Shown here: positions 6,267 through 35,344 of the stretch, one piece after another | How positions within the stretch are numbered: the stretch's first letter is position 1 | Layout: every line of letters begins with the position of its first letter | NCBI GenBank assembly: GCA_035996875.1 | Contig: DASYJD010000043.1 | Span: 6,724-70,723, forward strand | Direction of reading: 5' to 3' | DNA: 64,000 nucleotides | From: Thermoanaerobaculia bacterium | GTDB lineage: Bacteria; Acidobacteriota; Thermoanaerobaculia; Multivoradales; UBA5704 | Position numbers and translations under genes: made by a program | Notes under the pieces: generated by a model | The model's database searches: none | Told to the model about the DNA's origin: nothing | The model's input: only the letters and a program-made list of their open reading frames with translations

Positions 6267-8693
6267 ATGCCCACTCACCCCAAGCCTCCAATCACGGGCG
6301 GCTCGCACACGCTGCCCTTCGACAAGCTCGCGCCCCTCGAGTTCGAGCGCCTCTGCCTGTGGCTCGTGCAGCGCGAGGGCTACTCCCGGATCGAACACCT
6401 CGGCGAAGCAGGAAGCGAAGGCGGACGCGACGTGGTGGCCTGGAAGGACGGGCTTCGCTTCGTCTTCCAATGCAAGCGGGTGCAGTCGTTCACTGCGTCC
6501 CACGCCCGCAAGGAGATCGAGAAGCTCCGCCGCTTGCCGGTAGAGGATCAACCCCACGAGTTGGTGTTCGTGGTGTCTCGGGCGGTCAGCGCCGACACGC
6601 GCAACGCCATCCGGAAGGAGTGGGGCGACGAGGCGACCTGCCACTTCTGGAGCGGCAACGAGCTTGACGAGCGGGTCAAGCGCCATCCGGGTCTCTCCGA
6701 AGAGTTCTTTCAGTTGCCGTCCGTGAGGACGCCAACAGCTTTCCGGCACAACCTCCCCTTCTCCTCCCTCGGGCACCTCTTCCAGGGCCGGGAAGAGATG
6801 ATCACGGTCCTGCGCGAGAAGCTCACCCAAACGCCCGCCGGGCGGGCAACGGCCATCGCCGGCAAGGCCGTCCATGGCCTGGGCGGGGTGGGCAAGACGC
6901 GGCTGGCCGTGGAGTATGCGTGGCGGCACGCGGACGATTACACCGCGCTGCTGTTCGTGGGGGCAGGCTCCCCCGCTGATCTGCGGCGCAACCTCGCGGC
7001 GCTCTGCGAGCGGCCTGTGCTCGACCTGCCGGAGCAGGAAGCGCCAGAGGAGGAGGTCCGCGAGGTGGCCGTCCTGCGCTGGCTTGGAGAACAACCGGGG
7101 TGGCTGTTGATCCTCGACAACGTCGACGCGGAAGACGCTGCGGCGGCGGTGAATGTCCTGGTCACCCGCCTCCACGGCGACCACGTGCTCCTGACCGGCC
7201 GGCTCGCCCGCTGGAGCGCCGAGGTCGAGCCACTCGAGCTCGACGTGTTGGCCGAGGACGCCGCTGCTGAATTCCTGCTCGCCCGCACGAAGGGGCGGAG
7301 GAGGCCGACCCAGGAGGACGATCGCCACGCCATCGCGCTCGCTCGCGAGCTTGGCTTTCTGCCCCTGGCCCTGGAACAGGCCGGTGCCTACATCGCAGAG
7401 CGTCGCCTCACCCTCGCCGCCTATCTGGAAGAGTGGCAGTCACGGCACGATCAGATTTTGACATGGTTCGATCCGCGGGTGAGTCACTATCCAGCGAGTG
7501 TCGCCGTAACCTGGCAGACTTCCGTCGAGCGCCTCTCCGCCCCGGCCCGGCGCCTGCTCGAACGGCTGGCCTGGCTGGGACCGGAGCCGATTCCTGAATC
7601 GCTTCTGAAAGTGCCCGTCCCCCATTCTCCCGAGGAACCGGACAGTCGCGACGCTCTCGTGGAACTGGCGACCTACTCCCTGGTGACCCGCGACGGCGAA
7701 ACGCCGACCTTCACCGTTCACCGGCTTGTGCAGGACGTCACCCGTCGCAGTCTGAGGAATGGCTCCGACAAAGGAGCCTTGACGGAGACTCTGGACGAGG
7801 CGCTCCACTGGATAGACGACGCCTTCGTGGGACATCCTCAGGATGTCCGCATTTGGCCGACCCTTGATCCCCTCGCCTCCCATGCCCACTCGGTGGCGAT
7901 GAATGCTGATGCTGTTGGAATCGCCGATCCCACCGCTCGCCTGATGAACCAACTGGGCAGTCTGCTTCATGCCAAGTCCTTGTTTCCTGAGGCCGAGCCG
8001 TTGATGCGGCGCGTGGTGACGATCGTCGAAAGCAGCCTCGGTGAAGATCACCCCAATGTCGCGACGACCCTCAACAACCTGGCGCAATTACTCAAGGCCA
8101 CGAACCGTCTCAGCGAGGCCGAGCCGCTGATGCGACGTGCGCTTGCAATCGATGAGAAAAACTTCGGGGCGGAACATCCCGACATCGCCCTAGACCTCAA
8201 CAACTTGGCCGCATTGCTCCAGGCCACGAACTGTTTCAGAGAGGCTGAGCAACTAATGCGGCGTGCGCTCGAAATAGACGAGAAGAGCTTCGGGACGGAA
8301 CATACCAAGGTCGCCATCCGCCTCAACAACCTTGCGCAGTTGCTCCAAGCCACGAACTATCTCAGCGAAGCCGAGCCGCTGATGCGGCGTGTGGTGACGA
8401 TCTTCGAAAGCAGTCTCGGTGAAGATCACCCCAACGTCGCGGCGGCCCTCAACAATCTGGCAGCATTGCTCCATGCCACGAACCGTCTCGGCGAGGCCGA
8501 GCCGCTAATGCGCCGCCACCTGGTCATCTTCCTCGATTTCACGCACCGCAACGGGCATGAGCATCCATATTTGCGGGCAGCCTTCGATAACTATCGGTAT
8601 CTGCTCCGGAAGATGGGCAAGTCCGACACCGAGATTGAGGGGGCGATTACAACCCTGGTAGGGTCTCCAGGAATGAGGCGTCTGGCTCTATGA
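6267..8693 (+). CDS. STAND NTPase with N-terminal Mrr-like PD-(D/E)xK nuclease, NB-ARC ATPase and C-terminal TPR array (candidate antiphage Avs/NLR-like protein)
   Basis: N-terminus has GGRDVVAWKDG...FVFQCKR, an Mrr_cat-type D...QxK motif. Walker A GLGGVGKTRLA, Walker B WLLILDNVD. About five 42-aa TPR repeats (LNNLAQLL...AEPLMRR). Confidence 0.8.
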   Translation: MPTHPKPPITGGSHTLPFDKLAPLEFERLCLWLVQREGYSRIEHLGEAGSEGGRDVVAWKDGLRFVFQCKRVQSFTASHARKEIEKLRRLPVEDQPHELVFVVSRAVSADTRNAIRKEWGDEATCHFWSGNELDERVKRHPGLSEEFFQLPSVRTPTAFRHNLPFSSLGHLFQGREEMITVLREKLTQTPAGRATAIAGKAVHGLGGVGKTRLAVEYAWRHADDYTALLFVGAGSPADLRRNLAALCERPVLDLPEQEAPEEEVREVAVLRWLGEQPGWLLILDNVDAEDAAAAVNVLVTRLHGDHVLLTGRLARWSAEVEPLELDVLAEDAAAEFLLARTKGRRRPTQEDDRHAIALARELGFLPLALEQAGAYIAERRLTLAAYLEEWQSRHDQILTWFDPRVSHYPASVAVTWQTSVERLSAPARRLLERLAWLGPEPIPESLLKVPVPHSPEEPDSRDALVELATYSLVTRDGETPTFTVHRLVQDVTRRSLRNGSDKGALTETLDEALHWIDDAFVGHPQDVRIWPTLDPLASHAHSVAMNADAVGIADPTARLMNQLGSLLHAKSLFPEAEPLMRRVVTIVESSLGEDHPNVATTLNNLAQLLKATNRLSEAEPLMRRALAIDEKNFGAEHPDIALDLNNLAALLQATNCFREAEQLMRRALEIDEKSFGTEHTKVAIRLNNLAQLLQATNYLSEAEPLMRRVVTIFESSLGEDHPNVAAALNNLAALLHATNRLGEAEPLMRRHLVIFLDFTHRNGHEHPYLRAAFDNYRYLLRKMGKSDTEIEGAITTLVGSPGMRRLAL
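7960..8560 (+). repeat. Near-identical ~126-bp DNA repeats encoding the TPR units of the STAND sensor domain
   Basis: 7984..8058 and 8365..8439 are >90% identical (gaggccgagccg.tgatgcggcg.gtggtgacgatc.tcgaaagcag.ctcggtgaagatcacccc). Spurious antisense ORFs in the track (8048..8353, 8253..8474) reflect this. Confidence 0.7.
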
Positions 8694-23911: not shown

Positions 23912-23937
23912 CATAGAGACTGTATAAAGTCTCTATG
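23912..23937. promoter_or_regulatory. Perfect palindrome catagagact-gtataa-agtctctatg overlapping the antitoxin start codon (candidate autoregulatory operator)
   Basis: 10-bp arms. The ATG of the antitoxin gene is the last 3 nt of the palindrome. Confidence 0.5.
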
Positions 23938-24228
23938 AAGACTCTCACTATCACCGAGGCCAAGAAGAACCTGGGCCGCTGGCTGGCGGCGGCGGCCGGC
24001 GGCGATGACGTAGGCATCATCTTGGGGGCCGATATCATCGCCCTTCGCAAAGTGGAAGTGGAATCCATAGACTATGCGCAGAGTGAGTACGGTGCGACTC
24101 CAGAGCAGGTGGCCGCCTTACAGAAAACCGTGGACGACCGCTATCGCCAGCTCAGGCCTTCAGGGAAGCTTTTGACGGTCACAGCGGCCGAGCTGAGAGG
24201 ACTTCTTGAAGAAGCTTCTCTCCCTTGA
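23935..24228 (+). CDS. Type II antitoxin, Phd/YefM family
   Basis: MKTLTITEAKKNLGRWL..., typical Phd/YefM N-terminus. 97 aa. Overlaps the downstream gene. Confidence 0.65.
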   Translation: MKTLTITEAKKNLGRWLAAAAGGDDVGIILGADIIALRKVEVESIDYAQSEYGATPEQVAALQKTVDDRYRQLRPSGKLLTVTAAELRGLLEEASLP

Positions 24229-24496
24229 TCCCGAGGTCTTGAAACGGCTGAAGAAGCTCAAAAAAAAAGAGCGAGTGGAATGTTTGCTGGCCCTTGTTGA
24301 GATGGCGGACACGTTTGGCCAGCCTCATAGCCACAGCGGGATTGGTATCCGCAAGCTCGGCGACCGTCTTTTCGAGTGTCGAGGCAACTTAGCCTTGCGT
24401 TTCGTGTTTGAGAACCGAGCCGAGGATCTCTTCGTCTTCTTCCTGGGTAAACACACAGAAGTCCAGAAACTTCTTCGCACTGGCAGCTTGGGCTGA
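24206..24496 (+). CDS. Putative RelE/ParE-superfamily toxin
   Basis: TTG start overlapping the antitoxin 3' end by 23 nt. ...LALRFVFENRAEDLFVFFLGKHTEVQKL. Contains an A9 homopolymer at 24260..24268. Confidence 0.45.
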   Translation: MKKLLSLDPEVLKRLKKLKKKERVECLLALVEMADTFGQPHSHSGIGIRKLGDRLFECRGNLALRFVFENRAEDLFVFFLGKHTEVQKLLRTGSLG

Positions 24497-24579
24497 GGTC
24501 GCGGAGGGCTATTGCCTGGGCGGAGCCTTATCCAAGGCCCGCTGCGGACAGTGCCCGGCTCCTCCCGGCGCGATCCCTC

Positions 24580-25293
24580 TCACCCCACCCGGAACACCTT
24601 CATCACCTCGTCCCCCAGGTGATTGATGACCTTCACCGCGATGCGTCCCGACTTGGGCTTGTCGAACGGGCGTGAGGTGTCGCTGTGGAGGGTGGCCCAC
24701 GCTTCTTCGTTGATCTCCGCCTTGAGGGTGGTCTTGAGCGCCTTGTAGGGATCGTTGGCGCCCAGGAAGTAGGCGTGGCGGACGAAGAAGCTCTCTTCGT
24801 TGTAGTCGGTGTCGATGAACCAGCAGGCGATGCCCTCGGCGCCGTCGCTGCGGACCTCTCCGGTGTTCGGGTGGAAAACGTCGACACCGTTGATCTTGAC
24901 CTGAACCTGACCATCCTCGGCGGGGAGGATGTCGATATCAGGCTCACCGAAGATCACGAAGAGGTTGCCCTTGCCGGTGTTCTTCAAGTCGCCAGCCATA
25001 TGAAGGTCGGCGTTCATGCGCGCCTTGAGCACCGGGATGCGGCCGAGCTTGTTGAATTCGGAGGCGTGAGCCTCGTAGTTGAACGCACAGGCGATCAACA
25101 CGTCGAAGTCGGCGTCGCCAGCCTCGCGCGCAGCAGTGACGAGGTCGGGACGCGTGACGGTGCCGAACTCCGGACCGATGAAAATCGCGGCGCGCCTCTC
25201 TTTTCCCCCTTCGCCTCCTTCGAGATAACGCCCCTCGGCGCAAACATGGTTTCCGGGCCAGGGGTTAAGCGCGGAGAACAGAATCTTATCCAC
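24580..25293 (-). CDS. Detached C-terminal domain of the Type III Mod methyltransferase, the displaced 3' portion of mod
   Basis: GTG start at 25293, then DKILFS encoded by the 18-bp inverted repeat, then a ~230-aa methyltransferase C-terminal-type domain (...GRIAVKVINHLGDEVMKV). In frame with the mod 3' end if the 25291..27617 segment is inverted. Confidence 0.55.
   Translation of the reverse strand: MDKILFSALNPWPGNHVCAEGRYLEGGEGGKERRAAIFIGPEFGTVTRPDLVTAAREAGDADFDVLIACAFNYEAHASEFNKLGRIPVLKARMNADLHMAGDLKNTGKGNLFVIFGEPDIDILPAEDGQVQVKINGVDVFHPNTGEVRSDGAEGIACWFIDTDYNEESFFVRHAYFLGANDPYKALKTTLKAEINEEAWATLHSDTSRPFDKPKSGRIAVKVINHLGDEVMKVFRVG
25273..25290. repeat. Left 18-bp inverted repeat (ggagaacagaatcttatc) of the invertible R-M segment
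   Basis: Perfect reverse complement of 27618..27635. Confidence 0.85.
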
Positions 25294-25521
25294 CTTGTGG
25301 TTGAGGTCAAAGGGTACCGTCGGGAGGATGCGAAAGAAAAGAAAGCAGTTATGGATTCGTATTGGATACCGGGAGTCAACAACCTCCGCACCTACGGCCG
25401 ATGGGCTTTCGCCGAGCTAACCGAGGTCTACCAAATCGAGAGCGACCTTGCGTCCAGGATCGAGTCTTTTTTCAACCAAATGATCGACCAAACGGTTGAG
25501 TCCGCCATGTATATCGTCTAA
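25291..25521 (+). pseudogene. Displaced 3' end of res: last 76 codons including the EVK of the PD-(D/E)xK nuclease motif
   Basis: Reads HLVVEVKGYRREDAKEKKAVMDSYWIPGVNNLRTYGRWAFAELTE...MYIV*. This continues the Res frame ...PDFVLLLDYGEQNLI across the inverted repeat when the segment is flipped. Stop lies 14 nt before the mod ATG. Confidence 0.7.
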
Positions 25522-25535
25522 AGAATGGATCAGCG

Positions 25536-27683
25536 ATGGCCGGGAAGAAAAGCAATCAAACGCCGAAGCAGATCGAAACGCTTATTCATGAGGAAGCGTC
25601 GCGCAAGAACATTCCCACGGCCGAGCTTCAGTCGGTCATGGCGAAGAACACCCAAAGCCCAATTCAGGTTGCCTACGAGCGCCGGAACCGCGATCTAGAT
25701 CCGCAACTTGTCTGGCGCGGCAAGGACGAGAAGGACTGGTCGGATCTGGTGGTGACGGCGCCCCCACTGTTCATTCAGGAGAAGGTGCATCCTAAAGCAT
25801 TGATCGACGATCTGGTCCAACGAAGCTCGCGCTCGAAGGAACAGGCGTCGGGAGTTCAGATCGATCTGTTCGCGGACTTCAACGGCGTTCCTGAGGGGGA
25901 CGCCAAGACCGAGTTTTACCAGCACGAAGCGAACTGGACGAACCGCATGATCCTGGGCGATAGCCTGCAAGTGATGGCCTCGCTCGCCGAGCGCGAAGGA
26001 CTGCGCGGCAATGTCCAGTGTATCTACTTCGATCCGCCCTATGGCATCAAGTTCAACTCCAACTTCCAGTGGTCGACCACCAGCCGAGACGTCAAAGACG
26101 GCAATACGGATCACATCACCCGTGAGCCCGAGCAGGTGAGAGCATTCCGTGACACATGGCGTGATGGGATTCACAGCTACCTGACGTATCTACGCGATCG
26201 GCTAACGATAGCGCGAGATCTGCTGAGAGAGAGTGGATCGATCTTCGTGCAGATCGGCGATGAGAACGTTCACCTCGTTAGGGCAGTGATGGATGAGGTG
26301 TTCGGCGAACCAAACTTCATATCTCAGGTTGTCTTCAAGAAAACATCATCAACTTCTTCCGAGGATCTTTCAAGCGTTTTTGACTACCTGCTTTGGTATA
26401 GGAAATCCGCGGTCTGCAAATACCGCCCGCTGTTTCAGTTCAAGAATCCTGGCGATGAAGGCGCTACTCAGTATTCCTTGGGGGAAAGCAAGCTTGGGGA
26501 GCGTCGCACACTAGCCGATTGGAAGGAAGAAAATGTTATCGCGGGTTCACTAAGGGTTTTCGCGCACGACAACATCACTAGTCAACGCCCAGCTCAGGGA
26601 GAAGACGTTCGGGCACTTGAGTATGAGGGGCGCTATTTTTCAATCAAAAAGGGTACCTTTAAGACTGATGCGATAGGGTTGCGGCGGTTATCCCAAACGA
26701 AGCGAATGATCTTCGTAGGTGGCACACTGCGTTACGTGCGCTACCTGGATGACTTCAAGGTTTTTCCTTACTCGAATCTATGGACCGATACCACGACTTC
26801 CGGCTTTGCCGACCCGAAGGTCTACGTCGTACAGACGAATCGGTCTGTAATCGAGCGTTGCCTTCTAATGGCCACCGATCCTGGGGATCTCGTTCTCGAT
26901 CCAACCTGCGGCTCGGGCACCACAGCCTATGTCGCGGAGCAGTGGGGGCGCCGGTGGATTACAATCGATACCTCGCGCGTGGCCTTGGCGCTGGCTCGCG
27001 CTCGGATCATGGGGGCCCGCTATCCCTTCTATCATCTCGCGGACAGCCGCGAGGGCCAGCTCAAAGAGGCCGAAGTCCGTCGCACCGGGCCGAGCCAAGC
27101 CTCGACACACGGCGACCTGCGCCAGGGTTTCGTCTACGAGCGTGTGCCTCACATCACACTCAAGTCGATCGCCAACAACACTGAGATCGATGTCATCTGG
27201 GAGAGGTTCCAGCAGGCGCTAGAGCCCCTGCGTGGACAGCTCAACAGAGTTCTCGGCGAGACTTGGGAGGAATGGGAGATTCCTCGAGCTTCCGAGCCGA
27301 AATGGTCAGCGGACGTAAGGGACCTGCACGGCCGGTGGTGGAAGGAGAGGATCGCCCGGCAGAAGGAGATCGATGCCTCCATCGCCGCCAAGGCCGAGTA
27401 CGAGTATCTCTATGACAAGCCTTACTCGGACGACAGGAGAGTCCGCGTTGCAGGCCCATTTACGGTCGAGAGCATCTCGCCGCACCGTACTCTGGGAGTC
27501 GACGAGAACGACGACTTGATAGACTCCCTAGAGAGCGCCCAATGCGAGAGGCCGGACTTCGCCACCATGATCCTGGAAAACCTGAAGACCGCCGGGGTGC
27601 AACAATCGCGGCTAGACGATAAGATTCTGTTCTCCGTAGTCCAAAAGCAAAACAAAGTCCGGCAAGTACGTGCGGGCTTCTGA
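25536..27683 (+). CDS. mod: Type III R-M methyltransferase Mod (beta-class N6-adenine), present form with a nonsense 16-aa tail
   Basis: YFDPPYG (motif IV) then DPTCGSGTT (motif I); N-terminal LVWRGKDE. Ends ...SRLDDKILFSVVQKQNKVRQVRAGF*, after DKILFS (the 18-bp repeat) instead of continuing into the C-terminal domain encoded at 24580..25272. Confidence 0.85.
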   Translation: MAGKKSNQTPKQIETLIHEEASRKNIPTAELQSVMAKNTQSPIQVAYERRNRDLDPQLVWRGKDEKDWSDLVVTAPPLFIQEKVHPKALIDDLVQRSSRSKEQASGVQIDLFADFNGVPEGDAKTEFYQHEANWTNRMILGDSLQVMASLAEREGLRGNVQCIYFDPPYGIKFNSNFQWSTTSRDVKDGNTDHITREPEQVRAFRDTWRDGIHSYLTYLRDRLTIARDLLRESGSIFVQIGDENVHLVRAVMDEVFGEPNFISQVVFKKTSSTSSEDLSSVFDYLLWYRKSAVCKYRPLFQFKNPGDEGATQYSLGESKLGERRTLADWKEENVIAGSLRVFAHDNITSQRPAQGEDVRALEYEGRYFSIKKGTFKTDAIGLRRLSQTKRMIFVGGTLRYVRYLDDFKVFPYSNLWTDTTTSGFADPKVYVVQTNRSVIERCLLMATDPGDLVLDPTCGSGTTAYVAEQWGRRWITIDTSRVALALARARIMGARYPFYHLADSREGQLKEAEVRRTGPSQASTHGDLRQGFVYERVPHITLKSIANNTEIDVIWERFQQALEPLRGQLNRVLGETWEEWEIPRASEPKWSADVRDLHGRWWKERIARQKEIDASIAAKAEYEYLYDKPYSDDRRVRVAGPFTVESISPHRTLGVDENDDLIDSLESAQCERPDFATMILENLKTAGVQQSRLDDKILFSVVQKQNKVRQVRAGF

Positions 27684-30440
27684 GCCGTAGCGATAGGGCA
27701 CCTCGAGACCGAGGTTGTAATTTTTCACGTAGGCCCGTACTCGCGGATGCGACTCGGCCACGCGGCAGAGCTCAGCCTCCCAGTCGCTGTCGCAGACAAT
27801 CCAGTTGATATGGCAGCGGCGTGGATCGGTCTGCCACCGAGTCTCCTTCGAGGTGGTGAAGTGGACGTGCCGGGTCGAGCCCGTGGGGTTGTACGGATCG
27901 AGCATCGCCTTGACCGGCCGTTCCCCCACCAGGCTCGCGACGATGCCGTGGGTGATTCGCTCGCAGGCCATATCCGCCAGCTCCTCGTACAGGAGCTGCG
28001 CGGGGTACGTACCTCCGGTGCAAACCAGATGATGGTCGAGCCATTCGCCGGTGATTCGCTTGAGCTGGCCGAACAGATGGAGCTTGGGTTCCTCGCCGGG
28101 ATCGCGCCACTTGGTGTAGAGCAGACGCCGGGTGAGGTGGTAGAGCAACGTCGAGCGGCGAAGCTCGCCGGTGTGCACCAGGTTCAGATCGACCGCCTCA
28201 CCGAGAATGCCCTGGTTCCGGGTCACCGAGGGACCCACGAGATCCGGGGTCAGCTCAAGGGTCGAGTCGTCGTCGAAGCGGGCAGAGAGTTTCTCCTCGG
28301 GCAGCTCGACGCGGTAGCCCTCGACCCGTGGAAAACGGATCTCGCAGGCATCGCGCTCGGGACGAATCGCCTGGACCAGGACTGTCTCGCGAGGCGGCTG
28401 CGGCGGCGCCACCACCGGCTTCGCGTTGAAGTCAAAGGGGATGCCGAGCACGTCCGCATACTCGACGTTGAACAACCCCTCGTCGTTCAGATCGTACGAC
28501 TGGCGCCGGAGCGCCCGGCCGATCACCTGCTCGCAGAGGAGCTGAGTGCCGAAGGCGCGCACGCCGAGCACGTGGGTGACCGTGTTGGCGTCCCACCCCT
28601 CAGTCAGCATCGAGACGGAGACGACACAGCGGATGGAGCCACCGAGGCGTCCCTGCTTGCCGACTGTGTTCATCACCTCACGCAGGAGGTCTTCGTCCGA
28701 AAGGTTCTCTGCTTGCCGCTGGTCACCTGTGCGTTCACGGATCTCACGCCGGAAGCGATCGATCTCGTCCGCGGCCATCTTGCGGAAGTTGTCGTCGAGC
28801 CCTTCGCCGGCTTCGAGCTGCTCGCTGTCGATCAGCAGCGTGCGCGGCCGGCCGAGCCTGGCGCCCGACTCATCGAAGTTCCGGAAGAGAGGCAGCCGGC
28901 CATTCTCGATGGTTTTCGTGCCGTCATCGTTGGCGCGTTCGAAACCGGAGACGTAGTCATAGACCAGCTTCGAGGTCGAGGTGTTGTTGCACACCACGAT
29001 GAAGCAGGGAGGCACACTGACTCCGGCCTGCTCCCAAAGCTCGAAGGTCTTGGCATAGTGGCCGTAGAGGGCATCGAGCGCCGTCTGGAGCTTCGTCGGC
29101 AGCTTGAGGGGATCCAATCCGCCCGCCTTCGCGCGTCCCCTCTTCGGCATCTCGGCGCGAATGTGATCCCAGAGGTTGCGGAAGACGGGCATCTCTTCCC
29201 CCGGGATGTTGTCCGCGACCGGCACCCGGGGGAGCTTCACGATGCCGCTTTCGATGGCGTCCATCAGGGAGAAGTCGCTCATGGTCCAGGGGAAGAGGGT
29301 GCCCTCGGCGTAGCCCGAGCCGCGGAGGAAGAACGGCGTCGCCGATAGATCGATCACTCGCAGCAGGCCGAGCTTGCGCTGGACTCTCTCCAGTCCGGAG
29401 ATCCAGAGCCGTGCAGCCTCCTGGTTGCGTTCGGCTTCCTGCCGGTCCTCTCCCTTCAGCTCGTCCTCGTCGGGCTCGCCAGGTTTTTGGCGGTAGCAGT
29501 GATGGGCCTCGTCGTTGAGCACGAGGACGTTCTTCATTCCCATCAGGTCGGGCATCACGCGCTGAAGCATCTGGCCTTCGGTTTCGAGGGTCGAAAGCTC
29601 CGGCCCACGACCTTGGAGCAGCGCCCGGTTCCCTTTCGACAGCTCAAGCACCTCGCGCAGCTTGAAGGCGTGATAGTTGGTGATGACGATTTTCGCCCTC
29701 CCGAGATCCCCCAGGAGATCGGGCGGCACCAGCTCTCGGCTCTGGTAGTAGCTGTCCGGGTCGTTCGGCTGTAGCACCCGCAGACGGTCCCGGATCGTCA
29801 GGCCGGGGGTGACGACGAGGAAGCCTCGGGTGAACCGGCGGCTGTTCGGCCGGCGCACCGCATTGATCGTCTGCCAGGCGATGAGCATCGCCATGACGGT
29901 CGTCTTGCCGGTTCCGGTCGCGAGCTTGAGCGCCAGGCGGGCCAGCCCTGGGTTCGCCTCCTCGTTCGCCGCCGAGAGGTGATCGAGAAACTTCTGGCCC
30001 GCGGCGCCCAGTTTCGGCGCCACCTCGACGAGCCAGATGATTGTCTCAACCGCTTCGACCTGGCAGAAGAATGGCCGCAAAGCGCTGAACTTGTGGTGCC
30101 GCCAGTGTGCAAGGAGCCGTGCCGTCTCGGGAGTCACCGCCCAGTCGTTGGCGTTCGGCAGCTCCCGCCAGGCGTCGACCGTTTGACGCAGGGCGTTGAT
30201 GACGGGCGTTGGGTCGTACTTCTGGCGCTCGGTCGACAGACCCATAGCATCCTGGAGAAGGAGCTCCCTCTGCCCTATCCGTTGCTTCTTTGCCTGCGGA
30301 ATCGGCGACACGTACTGCGCCGACCGCCGCCGCTCGATCACCCGGTTCGTCGGCTGTCCGCTCTCGTCGAGCTCCCAGTACTGCGCAGGATAGTCGTATG
30401 GCGAGTTGAGGATGGGACGGTCAAAAAACGACAGGGACAT
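27612..30440 (-). CDS. res: Type III R-M restriction subunit Res (SF2 helicase/ATPase), truncated in the PD-(D/E)xK motif in the present orientation
   Basis: Reverse complement from 30440 reads MSLSFFDRPILNSPYDYP... Walker A TGTGKTT, DEAH box VLNDEAHH. C-terminus ...PDFVLLLDYGEQNLIV* lacks the EVK. The track labels this ORF '+', but the + strand at 27612 is in the Mod frame. The gene is on the minus strand. Confidence 0.85.
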   Translation of the reverse strand: MSLSFFDRPILNSPYDYPAQYWELDESGQPTNRVIERRRSAQYVSPIPQAKKQRIGQRELLLQDAMGLSTERQKYDPTPVINALRQTVDAWRELPNANDWAVTPETARLLAHWRHHKFSALRPFFCQVEAVETIIWLVEVAPKLGAAGQKFLDHLSAANEEANPGLARLALKLATGTGKTTVMAMLIAWQTINAVRRPNSRRFTRGFLVVTPGLTIRDRLRVLQPNDPDSYYQSRELVPPDLLGDLGRAKIVITNYHAFKLREVLELSKGNRALLQGRGPELSTLETEGQMLQRVMPDLMGMKNVLVLNDEAHHCYRQKPGEPDEDELKGEDRQEAERNQEAARLWISGLERVQRKLGLLRVIDLSATPFFLRGSGYAEGTLFPWTMSDFSLMDAIESGIVKLPRVPVADNIPGEEMPVFRNLWDHIRAEMPKRGRAKAGGLDPLKLPTKLQTALDALYGHYAKTFELWEQAGVSVPPCFIVVCNNTSTSKLVYDYVSGFERANDDGTKTIENGRLPLFRNFDESGARLGRPRTLLIDSEQLEAGEGLDDNFRKMAADEIDRFRREIRERTGDQRQAENLSDEDLLREVMNTVGKQGRLGGSIRCVVSVSMLTEGWDANTVTHVLGVRAFGTQLLCEQVIGRALRRQSYDLNDEGLFNVEYADVLGIPFDFNAKPVVAPPQPPRETVLVQAIRPERDACEIRFPRVEGYRVELPEEKLSARFDDDSTLELTPDLVGPSVTRNQGILGEAVDLNLVHTGELRRSTLLYHLTRRLLYTKWRDPGEEPKLHLFGQLKRITGEWLDHHLVCTGGTYPAQLLYEELADMACERITHGIVASLVGERPVKAMLDPYNPTGSTRHVHFTTSKETRWQTDPRRCHINWIVCDSDWEAELCRVAESHPRVRAYVKNYNLGLEVPYRYGSEARTYLPDFVLLLDYGEQNLIV
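27618..27635. repeat. Right 18-bp inverted repeat (gataagattctgttctcc)
   Basis: Encodes DKILFS in Mod (+) and GEQNLI in Res (-). Confidence 0.85.
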
Positions 30441-30785
30441 TTAGCAGAGGATATCTCACTGCGGCGAATGAATCCCATCCTGGCCCGCGTCACCCTTGGC
30501 AGGGTTGGGGATGGTGGGGTTCGCAGGGGTCCCAGGGTTGCACCCTGGGCTAGAGGAATGCCGCCCTCCGGGCTCTCGGCGTCGTCCATTGAGCTTTCAA
30601 GAGCCGCTCAACGCTCCTCGGGTACCTGACCGAAGACCTTGGCACCTCTCGCCACAACACGCAGGCTGACTACAACCGTACTGGAAAGCAGCTTGGCGCT
30701 GGACGGACTGCAAAATACCCCACGCCTACGGCCAAGCCGGCTGCCGAGCGCGGCCGAGGCCTACCACTCCTCCCGGACCCGTGAC

Positions 30786-30930
30786 CGGCCCCTTCAGGCC
30801 ACGGGTCCCCGCGGGTCTGCCGATCGTCTCAGCACCTTCTGCGAGCGAGCGGACCCAGGGCCGGAGGGGCGGTTGGACTCCCGGCCCCCCGGCGGATTTC
30901 AGTTGTCAAAGAACCTGCTTCACCCCGATC
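30786..30930. repeat. Left arm of a long (~140-bp, ~85% identity) inverted repeat
   Basis: Includes ggccggaggggcggttggactcccggccccccggcgg and the flanking ...gttgtcaaaga motif. Reverse complement matches 31640..31790. Confidence 0.7.
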
Positions 30931-31224
30931 GATGAGACCTCCTCGCCGGGCACTGCCTCCAGGAGGCAGGATCATACACCAAGAGAATCTGAAAACGTCA
31001 ATGCCAGTGAGCGAGATTTTTGAAAATTTCTAGGCTATCGTCAACCTTCTCAGAGAAGGGCAGACGTTTTCCACCGCTTCAAGACGCGATCCGTCACCTT
31101 GGCAGGAGGCGACCGTCGCCATTCGGCGCCCGGCCGGAACCGGTGGAGCGACCGCCCGCCCCTAGGGGCTGACCTGCTCCGGCCTCCTGAGAGGCAGCGG
31201 CCAGAAGATCGAGCCGGTCCGCCG

Positions 31225-31505
31225 CTGTTGAAAGTCGACTAGCCGCCGGCGGCCGACGCCGCGCCGGCAGCGGCGAGCCTCCGGCCGGTAGCCGAAATCC
31301 TCTCGCCGGTAGCGGCAAGTCGTCGGCCGGCAGCGGCCAGTCGTTGGCCGGTAGCGGCGGATCGTTCGCCGCCAGCGGCCAGTCGTCGGCCGGCAACGGT
31401 TAGTCGTTCGCCGCCAGCAGCCAGCCGTCTACCGGTAGCGGCGAGCCTCCGGCCGGCAGCGGCGAGTCGTCGGCCGGTGCCGGCTAACCGTCCGCCGGTA
31501 GCGGT
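31225..31505. repeat. Second degenerate 21-bp tandem array (~13 units; ggccggcagcggccagtcgtt family)
   Basis: Heptad LPADDWP-like on the minus strand but interrupted by stops, so probably non-coding. Lies inside the long inverted-repeat element. Confidence 0.7.
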
Positions 31506-31639
31506 CAGATGCCGCGAAGCCTACAAATTTCGTCTCGCATTGGCCACAGAAACCGTCTGTTAGGTTTTGTTCCAAAATCTAACAGGGTACTTGACTTCTT
31601 CAGGTGCCATGGATGTATGATCCAGCTCCCCTTCGGCGG

Positions 31640-31790
31640 GAAGGTCCCGCCGGCCGGGGTAGGTAGGCTCTTTGACAACTTGAACCGCCGGGGGGCCGGG
31701 AGCCCAACCGCCCCTCCGGCCCTTAGATCCGCTCGAACGCAGAGGGTGCGGAGACGATCGAGCGGATCTCAACGACCCGTGGCCTTAAGG
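31640..31790. repeat. Right arm of the long inverted repeat
   Basis: Reverse complement aligns with 30786..30930. Confidence 0.7.
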
Positions 31791-32019
31791 CGGGCAGGCC
31801 ACGGGTTTGTTTGTGTTTGGGGAGACAGGAGGGGGTGGAGAGGCGGCCAGGAAGGCGGCTTCGACGGAGGGTCCCCGAATCTCCCCGGCGGGGGTTGTCG
31901 TTTGATTGGGGCGGGATTGCCGCCTCGGAGACGTCCCGCCATTCCCGGGCCTGCGGAGGGGTGGCGTGGTCGGGCTGGGAGCGTCTCTACCCCTCCGGCC
32001 AGCTCTTTTGACGAGCTCC

Positions 32020-32350
32020 TACTTCCCCGCCAGGAACGCCTTTAGGACATGCCGGGCGACTTCGGGGTTCTCGCGCAGCCTCCGCATGGAGTATGGATAC
32101 CAGTCCCGGCCATAGGGGACGTAGACGCGCAAGCGGTGGCCGGCGGCGAGGAGGATGCGGCGCAGCTCGTCGTCCACCCGAGCAGCATCTGGAACTCGTA
32201 GCGGTCGCGGGGCACACTGTGCTTATCGAGGAGGGCCGTGGCCTCGCAAGCCAGATACTCGTCGTGGGTGGCGATGCCCACATAGACGCCGCGCAGAATG
32301 AGCTTCTCCAGGGCGCTGACGTAGTTGGCCCGCACGGTGTCATACCCCTT
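32020..32350 (-). pseudogene. Duplicated 3' fragment of proline dehydrogenase, frameshifted
   Basis: ~95% identical to 34445..34775. Encodes ...YDTVRANYVSALEKLILRGVYVGIATHDEYLACEATALLDKHSVPRDRYEFQMLLG, then a 1-bp deletion (cgtcgtccacccgag versus cgtcgtccaccccgag). Confidence 0.75.
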
Positions 32351-32433
32351 CCACCTTCGCGGATCGCCACCGGCCCAGCGCCGGTCAGGGCGTTCAACAG
32401 TTCCCACCGCTTGCCGGTGAGCGTCCCTGGAAA

Positions 32434-34444: not shown

Positions 34445-35344
34445 CTACTTCCCCGCCAGGAACGCCTTCAGCACATGCCGGGCGACTTCGGGGTTCTCGC
34501 GCAGCCTCCGCATGGAGTATGGATACCAATCCCTCCCATAGGGGACGTAGACGCGCAGGCGGTGGCCGGCGGCGAGGAGGATGCGGCGCAGCTCGTCGTC
34601 CACCCCGAGCAGCATCTGGAACTCGTAGCGGTCACGGGGCACACTGTGCTTGTCGAGGAGGGCCGTGGCCTCACAAGCCAGATATTCGTCGTGGGTCGCG
34701 ATGCCCACGTAGACGCCACGCAGGATGAGCTTCTCCAGGGCGCTGACGTAGTTGGCCCGCACGGTCTCGTAACCCTTCCAGGCCACCTTGCGCGACTCGA
34801 TGTAGATCCCCTTGCAGAGGCGCACGGAGGCGCCTTCGGCGGGCAGGTCGTCGATGTCCTTCAGGGTGCGGCGCATGTAGGCCTGGAGGACGCAGCCGAC
34901 GTTGCCGTGGCGGGCCTGGAGGTCGCGGTAGATGCGCAGCGTGGCATCCGTCGTCGATTGGTCCTCCATGTCGATACGCACGGAGTTGCCCTGCGCCTTC
35001 GCCGTCTCGGCGATGCGGCCGATGTTGTCGCGGCAGAAACCCTCGTCGATCTTCAGCCCCAGGAGGGTCGGCTTGATGGAGACGTTGGCGTTCAGCTTCT
35101 CCCGTTCGATCGCCGCGAAGGCCCGGAGGTTCTCCTCGGTGGCGGCGAGGGCTTTCTCGCGCTCGCTGACCTCCTCGCCGAGGACGTCGACGGTCGCCAT
35201 GGCGCCTTCCTGATTGAGGCCGCGGATGATGCGGACGGCATCTTCGAGAGTCTCGCCCGCGACGTAGCGGGAGGCCACCCGGCGGACGACGGGTTTGGGC
35301 ACCAGAGGCAGGGTGGTGACCAGCAAGCGGTTGAACACACTCAT
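34445..35344 (-). CDS. Proline dehydrogenase (monofunctional PRODH)
   Basis: 299 aa. ...VRLCKGIYIE...YETVRANYVSALEKL...RLRENPEVARHVLKAFLAGK. Confidence 0.85.
   Translation of the reverse strand: MSVFNRLLVTTLPLVPKPVVRRVASRYVAGETLEDAVRIIRGLNQEGAMATVDVLGEEVSEREKALAATEENLRAFAAIEREKLNANVSIKPTLLGLKIDEGFCRDNIGRIAETAKAQGNSVRIDMEDQSTTDATLRIYRDLQARHGNVGCVLQAYMRRTLKDIDDLPAEGASVRLCKGIYIESRKVAWKGYETVRANYVSALEKLILRGVYVGIATHDEYLACEATALLDKHSVPRDRYEFQMLLGVDDELRRILLAAGHRLRVYVPYGRDWYPYSMRRLRENPEVARHVLKAFLAGK

What the first reader, a model, noticed from the sequence alone, without database searches (positions are those of the whole stretch)
25273..27635. Type III res-mod system split by inversion of a 2.3-kb segment between 18-bp perfect inverted repeats, a candidate inversion switch
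Directly visible in the sequence: ggagaacagaatcttatc (25273-25290) and its exact reverse complement gataagattctgttctcc (27618-27635) bracket res-3'-end plus most of mod. In the present orientation Mod (+) reads ...SRLD-DKILFS-VVQKQNKVRQVRAGF*, a nonsense 16-aa tail. Res (-) ends ...PDFVLLLDYGEQNLI-V*, cut inside its PD-(D/E)xK nuclease motif. If the segment is flipped both frames heal. Res continues GEQNLI-HLVVEVKGYRRED...MYIV*, restoring EVK and a typical Type III Res C-terminus. After 14 nt Mod follows on the same strand and continues DKILFS-ALNPWPG... into the 230-aa C-terminal domain now encoded divergently at 24580-25272, giving a res-mod operon. A perfect 18-bp inverted repeat embedded in two coding sequences is far beyond chance. 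This implies either programmed DNA inversion that switches R-M activity on and off (Type III systems normally phase-vary by simple repeats, not inversion), or a recent inactivating inversion. No recombinase gene is visible in the window. The present-state Mod retains all catalytic motifs, so methylation without restriction is plausible in this orientation. The track's '+' label for the Res ORF is wrong; the protein reads only from the minus strand.
Basis: seen in the sequence. Interest (0 to 1): 0.9.

Follow-up and report, generated by a model that had tools for sequence, protein, structure and literature searches.

The report
Invertible segment splitting a restriction-modification operon
A 2.3-kb piece of DNA between two short inverted repeats has flipped and cut both genes of a bacterial restriction-modification defence system in half, and related genomes carry the same repeats in both orientations, so this looks like a flip-flop on/off switch rather than a one-off accident.

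Summary
A perfect 19-bp inverted repeat (25272-25290 / 27618-27636) brackets 2,327 bp. Flipping that segment restores a full res-mod operon on the minus strand. Res becomes 1017 aa (BPTD_3080-family endonuclease) and Mod 930 aa (Type III methyltransferase), 14 nt apart.

The repeat is not family-wide. About 55 distant relatives lack it. A sub-clade of at least 11 loci carries it at the same codon-aligned positions. Of these, 5 loci are seen inverted as DNA, and two more are inferred from protein sequence. Four or five are collinear, one has the segment deleted, and one contig ends inside the repeat. No repeat-less relative is broken there.

All four fully visible inverted loci heal to intact genes. 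dN/dS is 0.03-0.13. The two arms carry the same locus-specific variants (four haplotypes), which is concerted evolution. The inverted state occurs in at least four separate lineages.

Best reading (about 0.6): a real, recurrent and probably reversible inversion that turns restriction off. No linked recombinase was found. No read-level evidence of switching exists. Continued methylation in this orientation is unsupported. This is a new variant of inversion-based R-M phase variation.

The parts
25272..25290 (.). Left arm of the inverted repeat, CGGAGAACAGAATCTTATC. It reads G-E-Q-N-L-I in the Res frame.
   Evidence: shuffle test
27618..27636 (.). Right arm of the inverted repeat, GATAAGATTCTGTTCTCCG. 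It reads D-K-I-L-F-S in the Mod frame.
25291..27617 (.). Invertible segment of 2,327 bp. It holds the 3' end of res, the 14-nt spacer and the first 694 codons of mod. It is now in the orientation that breaks both genes.
   Evidence: In-silico flip restores both ORFs. GC3 is lower than in the flanks.
27612..30440 (-). Res N-terminal part (ORF of 942 aa). It has the ResIII helicase domain and the P-D half of the nuclease motif, and ends ...GEQNLI-V*.
   Evidence: P0121 is the identical protein in a Thermoanaerobaculia MAG
25273..25521 (+). Res C-terminal fragment: the repeat, then HLVVEVKGYRRED...MYIV*. It holds the E-x-K half of the nuclease motif.
25522..25535 (+). 14-nt res-mod intergenic spacer, carried inside the invertible segment.
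   Evidence: spacers of 11-16 nt in the related repeat-bearing operons
25536..27683 (+). Mod N-terminal part (ORF of 715 aa). True Mod residues 1-700 include the N6_N4_Mtase domain (160-485) and the variable central region, followed by a 15-aa nonsense tail.
   Evidence: (P0065 is the identical protein)
24580..25293 (-). Mod C-terminal domain fragment (residues 701-930 of the healed Mod). It is the most conserved part of the protein and its function is unknown.
   Evidence: structure model uninformative

Best explanation
This is a real DNA inversion inside a Type III-like restriction-modification operon. The operon is res then mod on the minus strand, and belongs to the BPTD_3080 family. Recombination between two 19-bp inverted repeats flipped 2,327 bp. 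One repeat lies in the spacer of the Res PD...ExK nuclease motif. The other lies in Mod, between the methyltransferase region and the conserved C-terminal domain.

In the present orientation Res lacks its E-x-K half, so restriction is off. That step follows from the sequence. Mod lacks its last 230 residues and is uncoupled from the res promoter, so modification is probably off or reduced. That step is inferred.

The repeat belongs to one sub-clade of the family. It is codon-aligned in both genes and dual-coding: Res G-E-x-(D/N)-L-I-(H-L-V) is the reverse complement of Mod (H-K-V)-D-K-I-x-F/L-S/T. Its two arms evolve in concert.

Inversion at this repeat has happened in at least four lineages. 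The flipped copies remain intact and under purifying selection. The most likely behaviour is therefore a reversible flip-flop, at least on evolutionary time and possibly within populations, that toggles the whole system on and off.

No recombinase is linked to the locus. The flipping is therefore inferred to rely on host functions, either general recombination or replication template switching between the arms. Template switching also homogenises the arms. A trans-acting invertase elsewhere in the genome remains possible.
For: Healing:
- Flipping restores a full-length Res (NF046055 positions 1-969/970) and a full-length Mod with no indels.

Same architecture elsewhere:
- L001 is inverted with a 27-nt repeat.
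- L097 (25 nt) and L098 (21 nt, perfect) are inverted.
- L002 shows the inverted junction.
- Proteins P0299 and P0318 carry antisense-ResC sequence fused to ModC.
- L083, L101, L086 and L100 are collinear with repeats of 22-33 nt at the same site. L094 is collinear at its Res junction; its Mod arm lies outside the stored locus.

Specificity:
- About 55 distant collinear loci show only 8-17 of 27 in-register matches, with no run longer than 6.
- Among the top 120 Res cluster representatives and about 75 members of control clusters, only proteins with the repeat signature are truncated at this site.

Concerted evolution:
- Four haplotypes occur, GAACAGAAT, GAACACAAT, GAACACGAT and GAATCCGAT, plus CCAC versus CCGT. 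Both arms of each locus carry the same variant.

Intactness:
- All four fully visible inverted loci heal to Res of 1014-1017 aa and Mod of 923-942 aa.
- dN/dS is 0.03-0.13 in every segment. This includes the inverted-inverted pair window-L098 (dS 0.35).
- The absence of any stop codon limits neutral decay to below about 0.015 substitutions per site per locus.

Phylogeny:
- The inverted state occurs in at least four separate lineages. The terminal groupings have 100% bootstrap support, but most deeper nodes are weakly supported.

Mixed population hint:
- Contig L085 ends inside the repeat (...GATCTTATCC), where the two orientations would diverge.

No linked recombinase:
- None was found in the window or in the gene neighbourhoods of L001, L083, L085, L086, L097, L098 and L099.

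Mechanism precedent:
- Template switching between short inverted repeats homogenises the arms and inverts the spacer (abstract of PMC8604942).
Against: - No reads were available, so both orientations have never been seen in one population.
- The inverted form of L001 is identical in six assemblies, which looks stable rather than rapidly switching.
- A deletion derivative (L099) and a degraded locus (L102) show that the site also produces dead ends.
- Repeats of 19-33 bp are short for RecA-type recombination, and no invertase was identified.
- Loci with the repeat are interspersed with loci lacking it in the Res tree. The history of the repeat (gain, loss or transfer) is therefore unresolved.
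- Turning the system back on in an unmethylated cell could be self-toxic.
- Only about a dozen loci were examined, all from metagenome assemblies.
Confidence: 0.6

Rival explanations
1. Recurrent one-way inactivation. The repeat is an accidental fragile site. Each inverted locus is a recent, irreversible knock-out of the R-M system that will decay or be deleted. Nothing is programmed or reversible.
For: A deletion of the whole segment between the repeats is seen in L099. A degraded locus has a breakpoint at the Mod repeat position (L102). The inverted form of L001 is fixed in six assemblies. No recombinase is linked. R-M systems are often lost.
Against: All four fully visible inverted loci are otherwise intact, and dN/dS is about 0.1. 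Roughly half of the repeat-bearing loci are inverted, yet none shows a stop or frameshift. The arms stay identical while differing between loci. That needs repeated exchange between arms in lineages that survive. If the repeat were only harmful, synonymous changes would erode it.
Confidence: 0.25
2. Programmed high-frequency phase variation driven by a dedicated site-specific invertase encoded elsewhere in the genome. The invertase would recognise the conserved core AACA(C/G)(A/G)ATCTTATC.
For: A 16-nt core is shared by all repeat-bearing loci even though dS between them is 0.35-0.8. Repeat lengths of 19-33 bp are typical of invertons. One contig breaks at the repeat (L085).
Against: No recombinase was found in the window or next to any of seven related loci, which sit in different genomic contexts. 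Conservation of the core is also explained by the dual coding constraint, because third positions in res are first positions in mod. The repeat boundaries differ between loci. No other copy of the core exists in the window.
Confidence: 0.2
3. The complementarity is kept for an RNA-level reason. In the collinear operon both arms lie in one transcript and could form a 20-30-bp long-range duplex, for example an RNase III target that tunes the Res/Mod ratio. Inversions would then be a by-product.
For: The arms co-vary like a conserved RNA helix. In the collinear state both arms are on the same strand of one operon.
Against: Of five arm mismatches only two would be G-U pairs, which is no enrichment (own count). 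The repeat looks like a block copy between the two sites rather than stepwise compensatory change. This idea does not explain why flipped copies stay intact. It was not tested directly.
Confidence: 0.08
4. Assembly artefact. The assembler traversed the segment between the repeats in the wrong orientation.
For: All loci come from short-read metagenome assemblies. An inverted repeat of at least k-1 bases makes the orientation ambiguous in a de Bruijn graph.
Against: At 19 bp the repeat is shorter than k-1 for the usual smallest k of 21, and far below the final k of 127-141 shown in the contig names. The inverted form recurs in independent assemblies and projects. It is found only where the repeat exists.
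Confidence: 0.03

Closest known systems
Type I R-M specificity switching by hsdS inversion (for example the systems surveyed from REBASE in PMC7394358)
   Same: DNA inversion between inverted repeats that lie inside R-M coding sequences changes the state of the system. It creates heterogeneity in methylation and restriction.
   Different: Those systems shuffle duplicated hsdS half-genes to change specificity. As I recall, they often have a recombinase gene next to them. Here there is no duplicated module. The repeats lie in two different genes, res and mod. The outcome is on/off for the whole system, and no recombinase is linked.
Type III mod phasevarions (simple-sequence-repeat phase variation)
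   Same: On/off switching of a Type III-type system.
   Different: Phasevarions switch by slippage of a repeat tract in mod (abstracts). This operon has no such tract, and its switch candidate is an inversion that breaks res and mod together.
Intragenic invertons (Chanin et al., bioRxiv 10.1101/2023.03.11.532203) and inversion-type structural variants of methyltransferase and specificity genes in gut microbiomes (PMC11741434)
   Same: The inverted repeats sit inside coding sequence, and inversion recodes or truncates the protein. PMC11741434 reports hundreds of inversion-type variants in methyltransferase or specificity genes.
   Different: Those cases were defined from read-level evidence, mostly in gut bacteria. 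PMC11741434 describes potential cases as having a neighbouring invertase. Here the two arms are in two adjacent genes, codon-aligned and dual-coding. The host is an environmental Acidobacteriota lineage, and only comparative evidence exists.
Template-switch mutagenesis between short inverted repeats (PMC8604942)
   Same: One replication-based mechanism gives both features seen here, homogenised arms and an inverted spacer.
   Different: As I recall, the described cases have short spacers of tens of bases. Here the spacer is 2.3 kb. Whether this mechanism acts here is inference.
Classical Type III R-M (EcoP15I-like)
   Same: A beta-class N6-adenine methyltransferase is paired with an SF2-helicase/PD-(D/E)xK endonuclease.
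   Different: The gene order here is res then mod. Mod is about 930 aa with an extra conserved 230-aa C-terminal domain. Res matches classical Type III Res models only weakly. No solved structure of a relative exists.

Membership tests
Type III restriction-modification system | Mod subunit is a beta-class N6-adenine DNA methyltransferase | tested here: met
   Pfam PF01555 at 5.3e-33 over residues 160-485. PADLOC MTase_III PDLC03632 scores 1416.8 bits over positions 74-983 of 983.
Type III restriction-modification system | Res subunit has an SF2 helicase/ATPase domain | tested here: met
   Pfam ResIII PF04851 at 4.6e-8, 33.6 bits against a cut-off of 22.5.
Type III restriction-modification system | Res has a C-terminal PD-(D/E)xK nuclease | tested here: inconclusive
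   Pfam RE_endonuc PF19778 scores 19.5 bits, below its 23.4 cut-off. However, P927-D928 and E946-x-K948 are invariant in 42 homologues, and many homologues carry PF19778.
Type III restriction-modification system | mod-res gene order and a classical Res sequence | tested here: not met
   The healed operon is res, 14 nt, mod. Classical Type III Res models match only at E 0.004 to 4e-5.
BPTD_3080 family restriction endonuclease (NCBIfam NF046055) | Full-length match above the curated cut-off | tested here: met
   The healed Res scores 1354.5 bits against a cut-off of 800, covering positions 1-969 of 970. The present 942-aa ORF lacks the last ~76 residues.
Inverton / phase-variable DNA inversion | A pair of inverted repeats flanks the invertible DNA | tested here: met
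   A 19-bp perfect repeat in the window, and repeats of 21-33 bp in eight relatives at the same site.
Inverton / phase-variable DNA inversion | Both orientations exist | tested here: met
   Between related loci, at least 5 are inverted and 4-5 collinear. Within one population this was not testable. The only hint is that contig L085 ends in the repeat.
Inverton / phase-variable DNA inversion | A site-specific recombinase (invertase) is encoded nearby | tested here: not met
   No recombinase domain in 40 of 44 predicted genes of the window or in the neighbourhoods of seven related loci.
Inverton / phase-variable DNA inversion | Reversible switching within a clonal population | not testable with these tools
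   This needs reads or experiments. The indirect support is intact flipped copies, dN/dS of about 0.1 and concerted arms.
Type I hsdS shufflon-type switching | Duplicated, divergent hsdS modules exchanged by inversion | tested here: not met
   No hsdS gene or duplicated module is present. The segment carries unique parts of res and mod.
Phasevarion (simple-sequence-repeat switching of mod) | A simple-sequence-repeat tract in or upstream of mod | tested here: not met
   No tandem repeats in 24400-30900. There is no homopolymer of 7 or more bases, and the only repeat is GAGAGAGA.

The most novel reading that the evidence does not exclude
A sub-clade of Type III-like R-M operons carries a self-maintaining, dual-coding inverted repeat written codon-for-codon into both res and mod. 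Flipping between the arms reversibly switches the whole system off and on without any dedicated, linked recombinase. The same exchange keeps the arms identical. Selection would maintain this as a bet-hedging or establishment device. For example, it could allow DNA uptake, escape from self-restriction, or harmless transfer of the operon in its off state.
Probability: 0.35. Interest if true: 0.85.

Novelty: new variant of a known kind. Interest (0 to 1): 0.68.

Why it matters
Phase variation of R-M systems changes both phage defence and genome-wide methylation. Type III systems are known to switch through repeat-tract slippage, and Type I systems through hsdS inversion.

An inversion that reciprocally splits res and mod would add a third route. 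It would also show how two unrelated protein motifs can be co-opted to encode a recombination site. The case is unusual in that the comparative signature is already visible in public metagenomes from non-host-associated bacteria (Thermoanaerobaculia). That signature consists of arms in concert, both orientations, and intact flipped copies.

The case is directly testable with read mapping or a cloned operon. If the switch is not adaptive, it is still a clear natural example of short inverted repeats driving recurrent gene-breaking inversions and deletions.

Tried and rejected
- **Repeat as a family-wide feature: rejected.** 55 distant loci show only 8-17 of 27 in-register matches.
- **Repeat created by the inversion as an inserted duplication: rejected.** Neither gene has an indel at the site relative to homologues.
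- **Metagenome scan with the repeat pattern.** It gave one related locus (L094) and nine unrelated hits. Six of those share a ~75-nt non-coding hairpin element with a 23-nt exact match to the Res junction. That element has no Rfam family. I treated the match as probable chance.
- **Invertible segment as a cassette shared by repeat-bearing loci: not supported.** Only a ~300-bp tract around the Res arm is unusually similar among window, L083 and L086.
- **Function of the Mod C-terminal domain.** The AlphaFold model has pLDDT 72 and no significant PDB fold match. There is no Pfam hit.
- **Sigma-70 promoter scan: uninformative**.
- **Solved structures and literature for the BPTD_3080 family: none found**.
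- **Search with the Mod C-terminal domain.** It returned mostly contig-end or frameshift fragments. Only P0299 and P0318 showed the inverted junction.
- **L102/L103 (Syntrophus MAG).** This is a different, degraded rearrangement and not an inversion at the repeat.
Full report
**1. The observation**

The window holds a perfect 19-bp inverted repeat. CGGAGAACAGAATCTTATC lies at 25272-25290 and its reverse complement at 27618-27636, with 2,327 nt between them. In 300 dinucleotide-preserving shuffles of the 5.9-kb operon, the longest perfect inverted repeat was usually 12 and never above 17. The 16-nt core occurs nowhere else in the window.

The ORFs are as described:
- Mod N-terminal part on the + strand, 25536-27683, 715 aa with a nonsense tail.
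- Res N-terminal part on the - strand, 27612-30440, 942 aa, ending GEQNLI-V*.
- Mod C-terminal 230 residues on the - strand, 24580-25293.
- Res C-terminal 76 residues on the + strand, up to 25521.

**2. Healing the operon**

Flipping 25291-27617 in silico gives, on the minus strand, Res of 1017 aa, a 14-nt spacer and Mod of 930 aa.

The healed Res matches NCBIfam NF046055 (BPTD_3080 family restriction endonuclease). The score is 1354 bits against a cut-off of 800, over positions 1-969 of 970. It also has a Pfam ResIII domain.

The healed Mod has the N6_N4_Mtase domain and matches the PADLOC Type III methyltransferase model PDLC03632 over its whole length. It aligns over 100% of its length at up to 78% identity to many ~930-aa proteins.

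Neither gene has an insertion or deletion at the repeat relative to homologues. The break in Res separates the invariant P927-D928 from E946-x-K948, so the present Res cannot have a complete PD-(D/E)xK site.

The exact truncated proteins are on record from a Thermoanaerobaculia MAG, on a 137-kb contig.

**3. Distribution of the repeat**

The family is very widespread and conserved, at 70-76% identity across phyla. In 55 collinear loci from other species I compared the Res site with the reverse complement of the Mod site, in register. Only 8-17 of 27 positions matched, with no run longer than 6. The repeat is therefore not a family feature.

It occurs in a sub-clade with Res at least ~79% identical to the window's. 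There the two sites are codon-aligned. Res G-E-x-(D/N)-L-I-(H-L-V) is the exact reverse complement of Mod (H-K-V)-D-K-I-x-(F/L)-(S/T).

Compared with relatives that lack the repeat, each protein has given way where the other is constrained:
- Mod changed HKE to HKV, matching the nearly invariant His codon of Res.
- Res changed DLL to (D/N)LI, matching the conserved D-K-I of Mod.

The repeat is AT-rich in a genome with GC3 of about 0.83.

**4. Orientation states among repeat-bearing loci**

| State | Loci |
|---|---|
| Inverted, both arms visible | window (19 nt), L098 (21 nt, perfect), L097 (25 nt, 1 mismatch), L001 (27 nt, 1 mismatch; identical junction protein on six contigs) |
| Inverted, one junction visible | L002 |
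| Inverted, inferred from protein | P0299, P0318 (antisense-ResC sequence fused to the Mod C-terminal domain) |
| Collinear | L083 and L101 (22 nt), L086 (26 perfect within 32), L100 (33 nt, 1 mismatch), L094 (Res junction only) |
| Segment between the repeats deleted | L099 (Res N-part fused at the repeat to the Mod C-domain) |
| Contig ends inside the repeat | L085 (...GATCTTATCC) |

L085 ends exactly where the two orientations would diverge in an assembly graph.

As a control, no relative lacking the repeat is broken at this site. That covers 80 genome loci, about 110 cluster representatives and about 75 members of control clusters. The short members of those clusters are truncated at the N-terminus.

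**5. Evidence that the arms interact repeatedly**

Across eight loci the variable codons inside the repeat take four haplotypes: GAA-CAG-AAT, GAA-CAC-AAT, GAA-CAC-GAT and GAA-TCC-GAT. There is also CCAC versus CCGT further in. In each locus both arms carry the same variant. Independent mutation cannot produce this. It requires repeated non-reciprocal exchange between the arms, by gene conversion or template switching. Alternatively it reflects selection for complementarity.

**6. Evidence that flipped copies are not decaying**

All four fully visible inverted loci heal to intact Res (1014-1017 aa) and Mod (923-942 aa), with spacers of 11-15 nt.

Pairwise dN/dS is 0.03-0.13 in every segment. 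This includes the pair window-L098, which are both inverted and have dS of 0.35 in res.

About 3.4% of random substitutions in these genes would create a stop codon. The absence of any stop therefore limits neutral evolution since inactivation to below about 0.015 substitutions per site for one locus, and below about 0.004 per locus for four jointly. That is far less than the divergence between the inverted loci.

In a Res tree the inverted state appears in at least four separate lineages: window+L098, L097, L001 and L002. The terminal groupings (window+L098; L083+L094+L101; L001+L085; L002+P0130) each have 100% bootstrap support, but most deeper nodes have 15-72%. Either inversions are frequent, very recent and independent, or the segment flips back and forth while selection keeps the genes working. 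I favour the second.

**7. Mechanism**

No recombinase domain is present in 40 of 44 predicted genes of the window. None is present among the neighbours of seven related loci, which lie in different genomic contexts. The operon is the only shared element.

The flipping is therefore inferred to depend on host functions or on a trans-acting invertase. Template switching between short inverted repeats is reported to homogenise the arms and invert the spacer (PMC8604942). It would explain both features, though the 2.3-kb spacer is long for that mechanism.

**8. Consequences of the present orientation**

Restriction is off, as shown by the split motif. Mod loses its most conserved domain, which is 87-94% identical among the closest homologues. 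It also no longer lies downstream of res. The function of that domain is unknown, because the structure model gave no significant fold match. There is no repeat tract that could give slippage-type switching.

**9. Other history**

The segment between the repeats has lower GC3 (0.46-0.80) than the flanks (0.82-0.90). A ~300-bp tract around the Res arm is unusually similar among window, L083 and L086. Loci with the repeat are interspersed with loci lacking it in the Res tree. The locus is therefore mosaic, and the origin of the repeat (one origin with transfer, or repeated conversion) is unresolved.

**10. Comparison with known systems**

Inversion switching is established for Type I hsdS genes (PMC7394358). 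Inversion-type variants are reported widely for methyltransferase or specificity genes in gut bacteria (PMC11741434). Repeats inside genes are known as intragenic invertons (bioRxiv 10.1101/2023.03.11.532203). Type III systems are described as switching by repeat-tract slippage. I found no report of an inversion that reciprocally splits res and mod, and nothing on the BPTD_3080 family.

**11. Verdict**

- Real inversion: about 0.95.
- Recurrent at a conserved, concerted repeat: shown.
- Reversible switch: about 0.6.
- Adaptive, programmed switch: about 0.35-0.4.

This is a new variant of a known kind. It is of solid interest and directly testable with reads.

Noticed in passing
window 30857-31723: An ~880-nt element with long terminal inverted repeats. 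The outer 39 nt are 97% complementary, and about 180 nt per arm are similar. It has no ORF with a Pfam hit, is the only copy in the window, and lies ~420 nt upstream of the res start codon. It may be a non-autonomous mobile element or part of the island border.
   Followed up: partly
window 32019-32407 (-) and 34445-35344 (-): A frameshifted C-terminal fragment of a proline dehydrogenase lies 2 kb from an intact Pro_dh gene. This looks like a duplication scar bounding an inserted island that carries a TIR-TonB_C gene, the inverted-repeat element, res/mod and two small ORFs (23935-24496).
   Followed up: partly
L088, L089, L091, L092, L093, L095 (peat metagenome contigs): A conserved ~75-nt non-coding hairpin element, ...AGATTCTGTAGGCGAATTATATACGCGTTTCGCGTAGATAATTACCCGTACAGAATCTTATCCACCTTGTGGGTTAG. 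It shares a 23-nt exact match with the window's Res junction. It has no Rfam family and its flanks are unrelated. The match is probably chance.
   Followed up: partly
L099 10795-10840: In a close relative the whole segment between the repeats is deleted. The Res N-part is fused at the repeat to the Mod C-domain (...GGAGAACAGAATCTTA|ACGGCACTTAATCCC).
   Followed up: yes
L102 1322-6414 and L103 (Syntrophus sp. MAG): A degraded family member. Res is cut at residue 759 and Mod keeps residues 1-73. HNH_2 and MazG-like genes follow, then the Mod C-domain starting at ...LFSSLIPWPG. The right breakpoint is again at the Mod repeat position.
   Followed up: partly
window 6267-8693 (+): An 808-aa protein with Mrr_cat nuclease, AAA/NB-ARC and TPR domains. 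It looks like a STAND-type defence candidate, inserted among the hydrogenase maturation (hyp) genes and near the [NiFe] hydrogenase structural genes.
   Followed up: no
window 25291-27617 versus flanks: GC3 drops to 0.46-0.80 inside the invertible segment, against 0.82-0.90 in the rest of res and mod. The lowest values are in the central variable region of Mod. This suggests the segment was acquired by recombination from a lower-GC relative.
   Followed up: partly
L005, L022, L032, L034, L047 and other distant loci: In many distant family members 1.4-7 kb of extra DNA lies between res and mod, so the operon is often interrupted by inserted genes.
   Followed up: no
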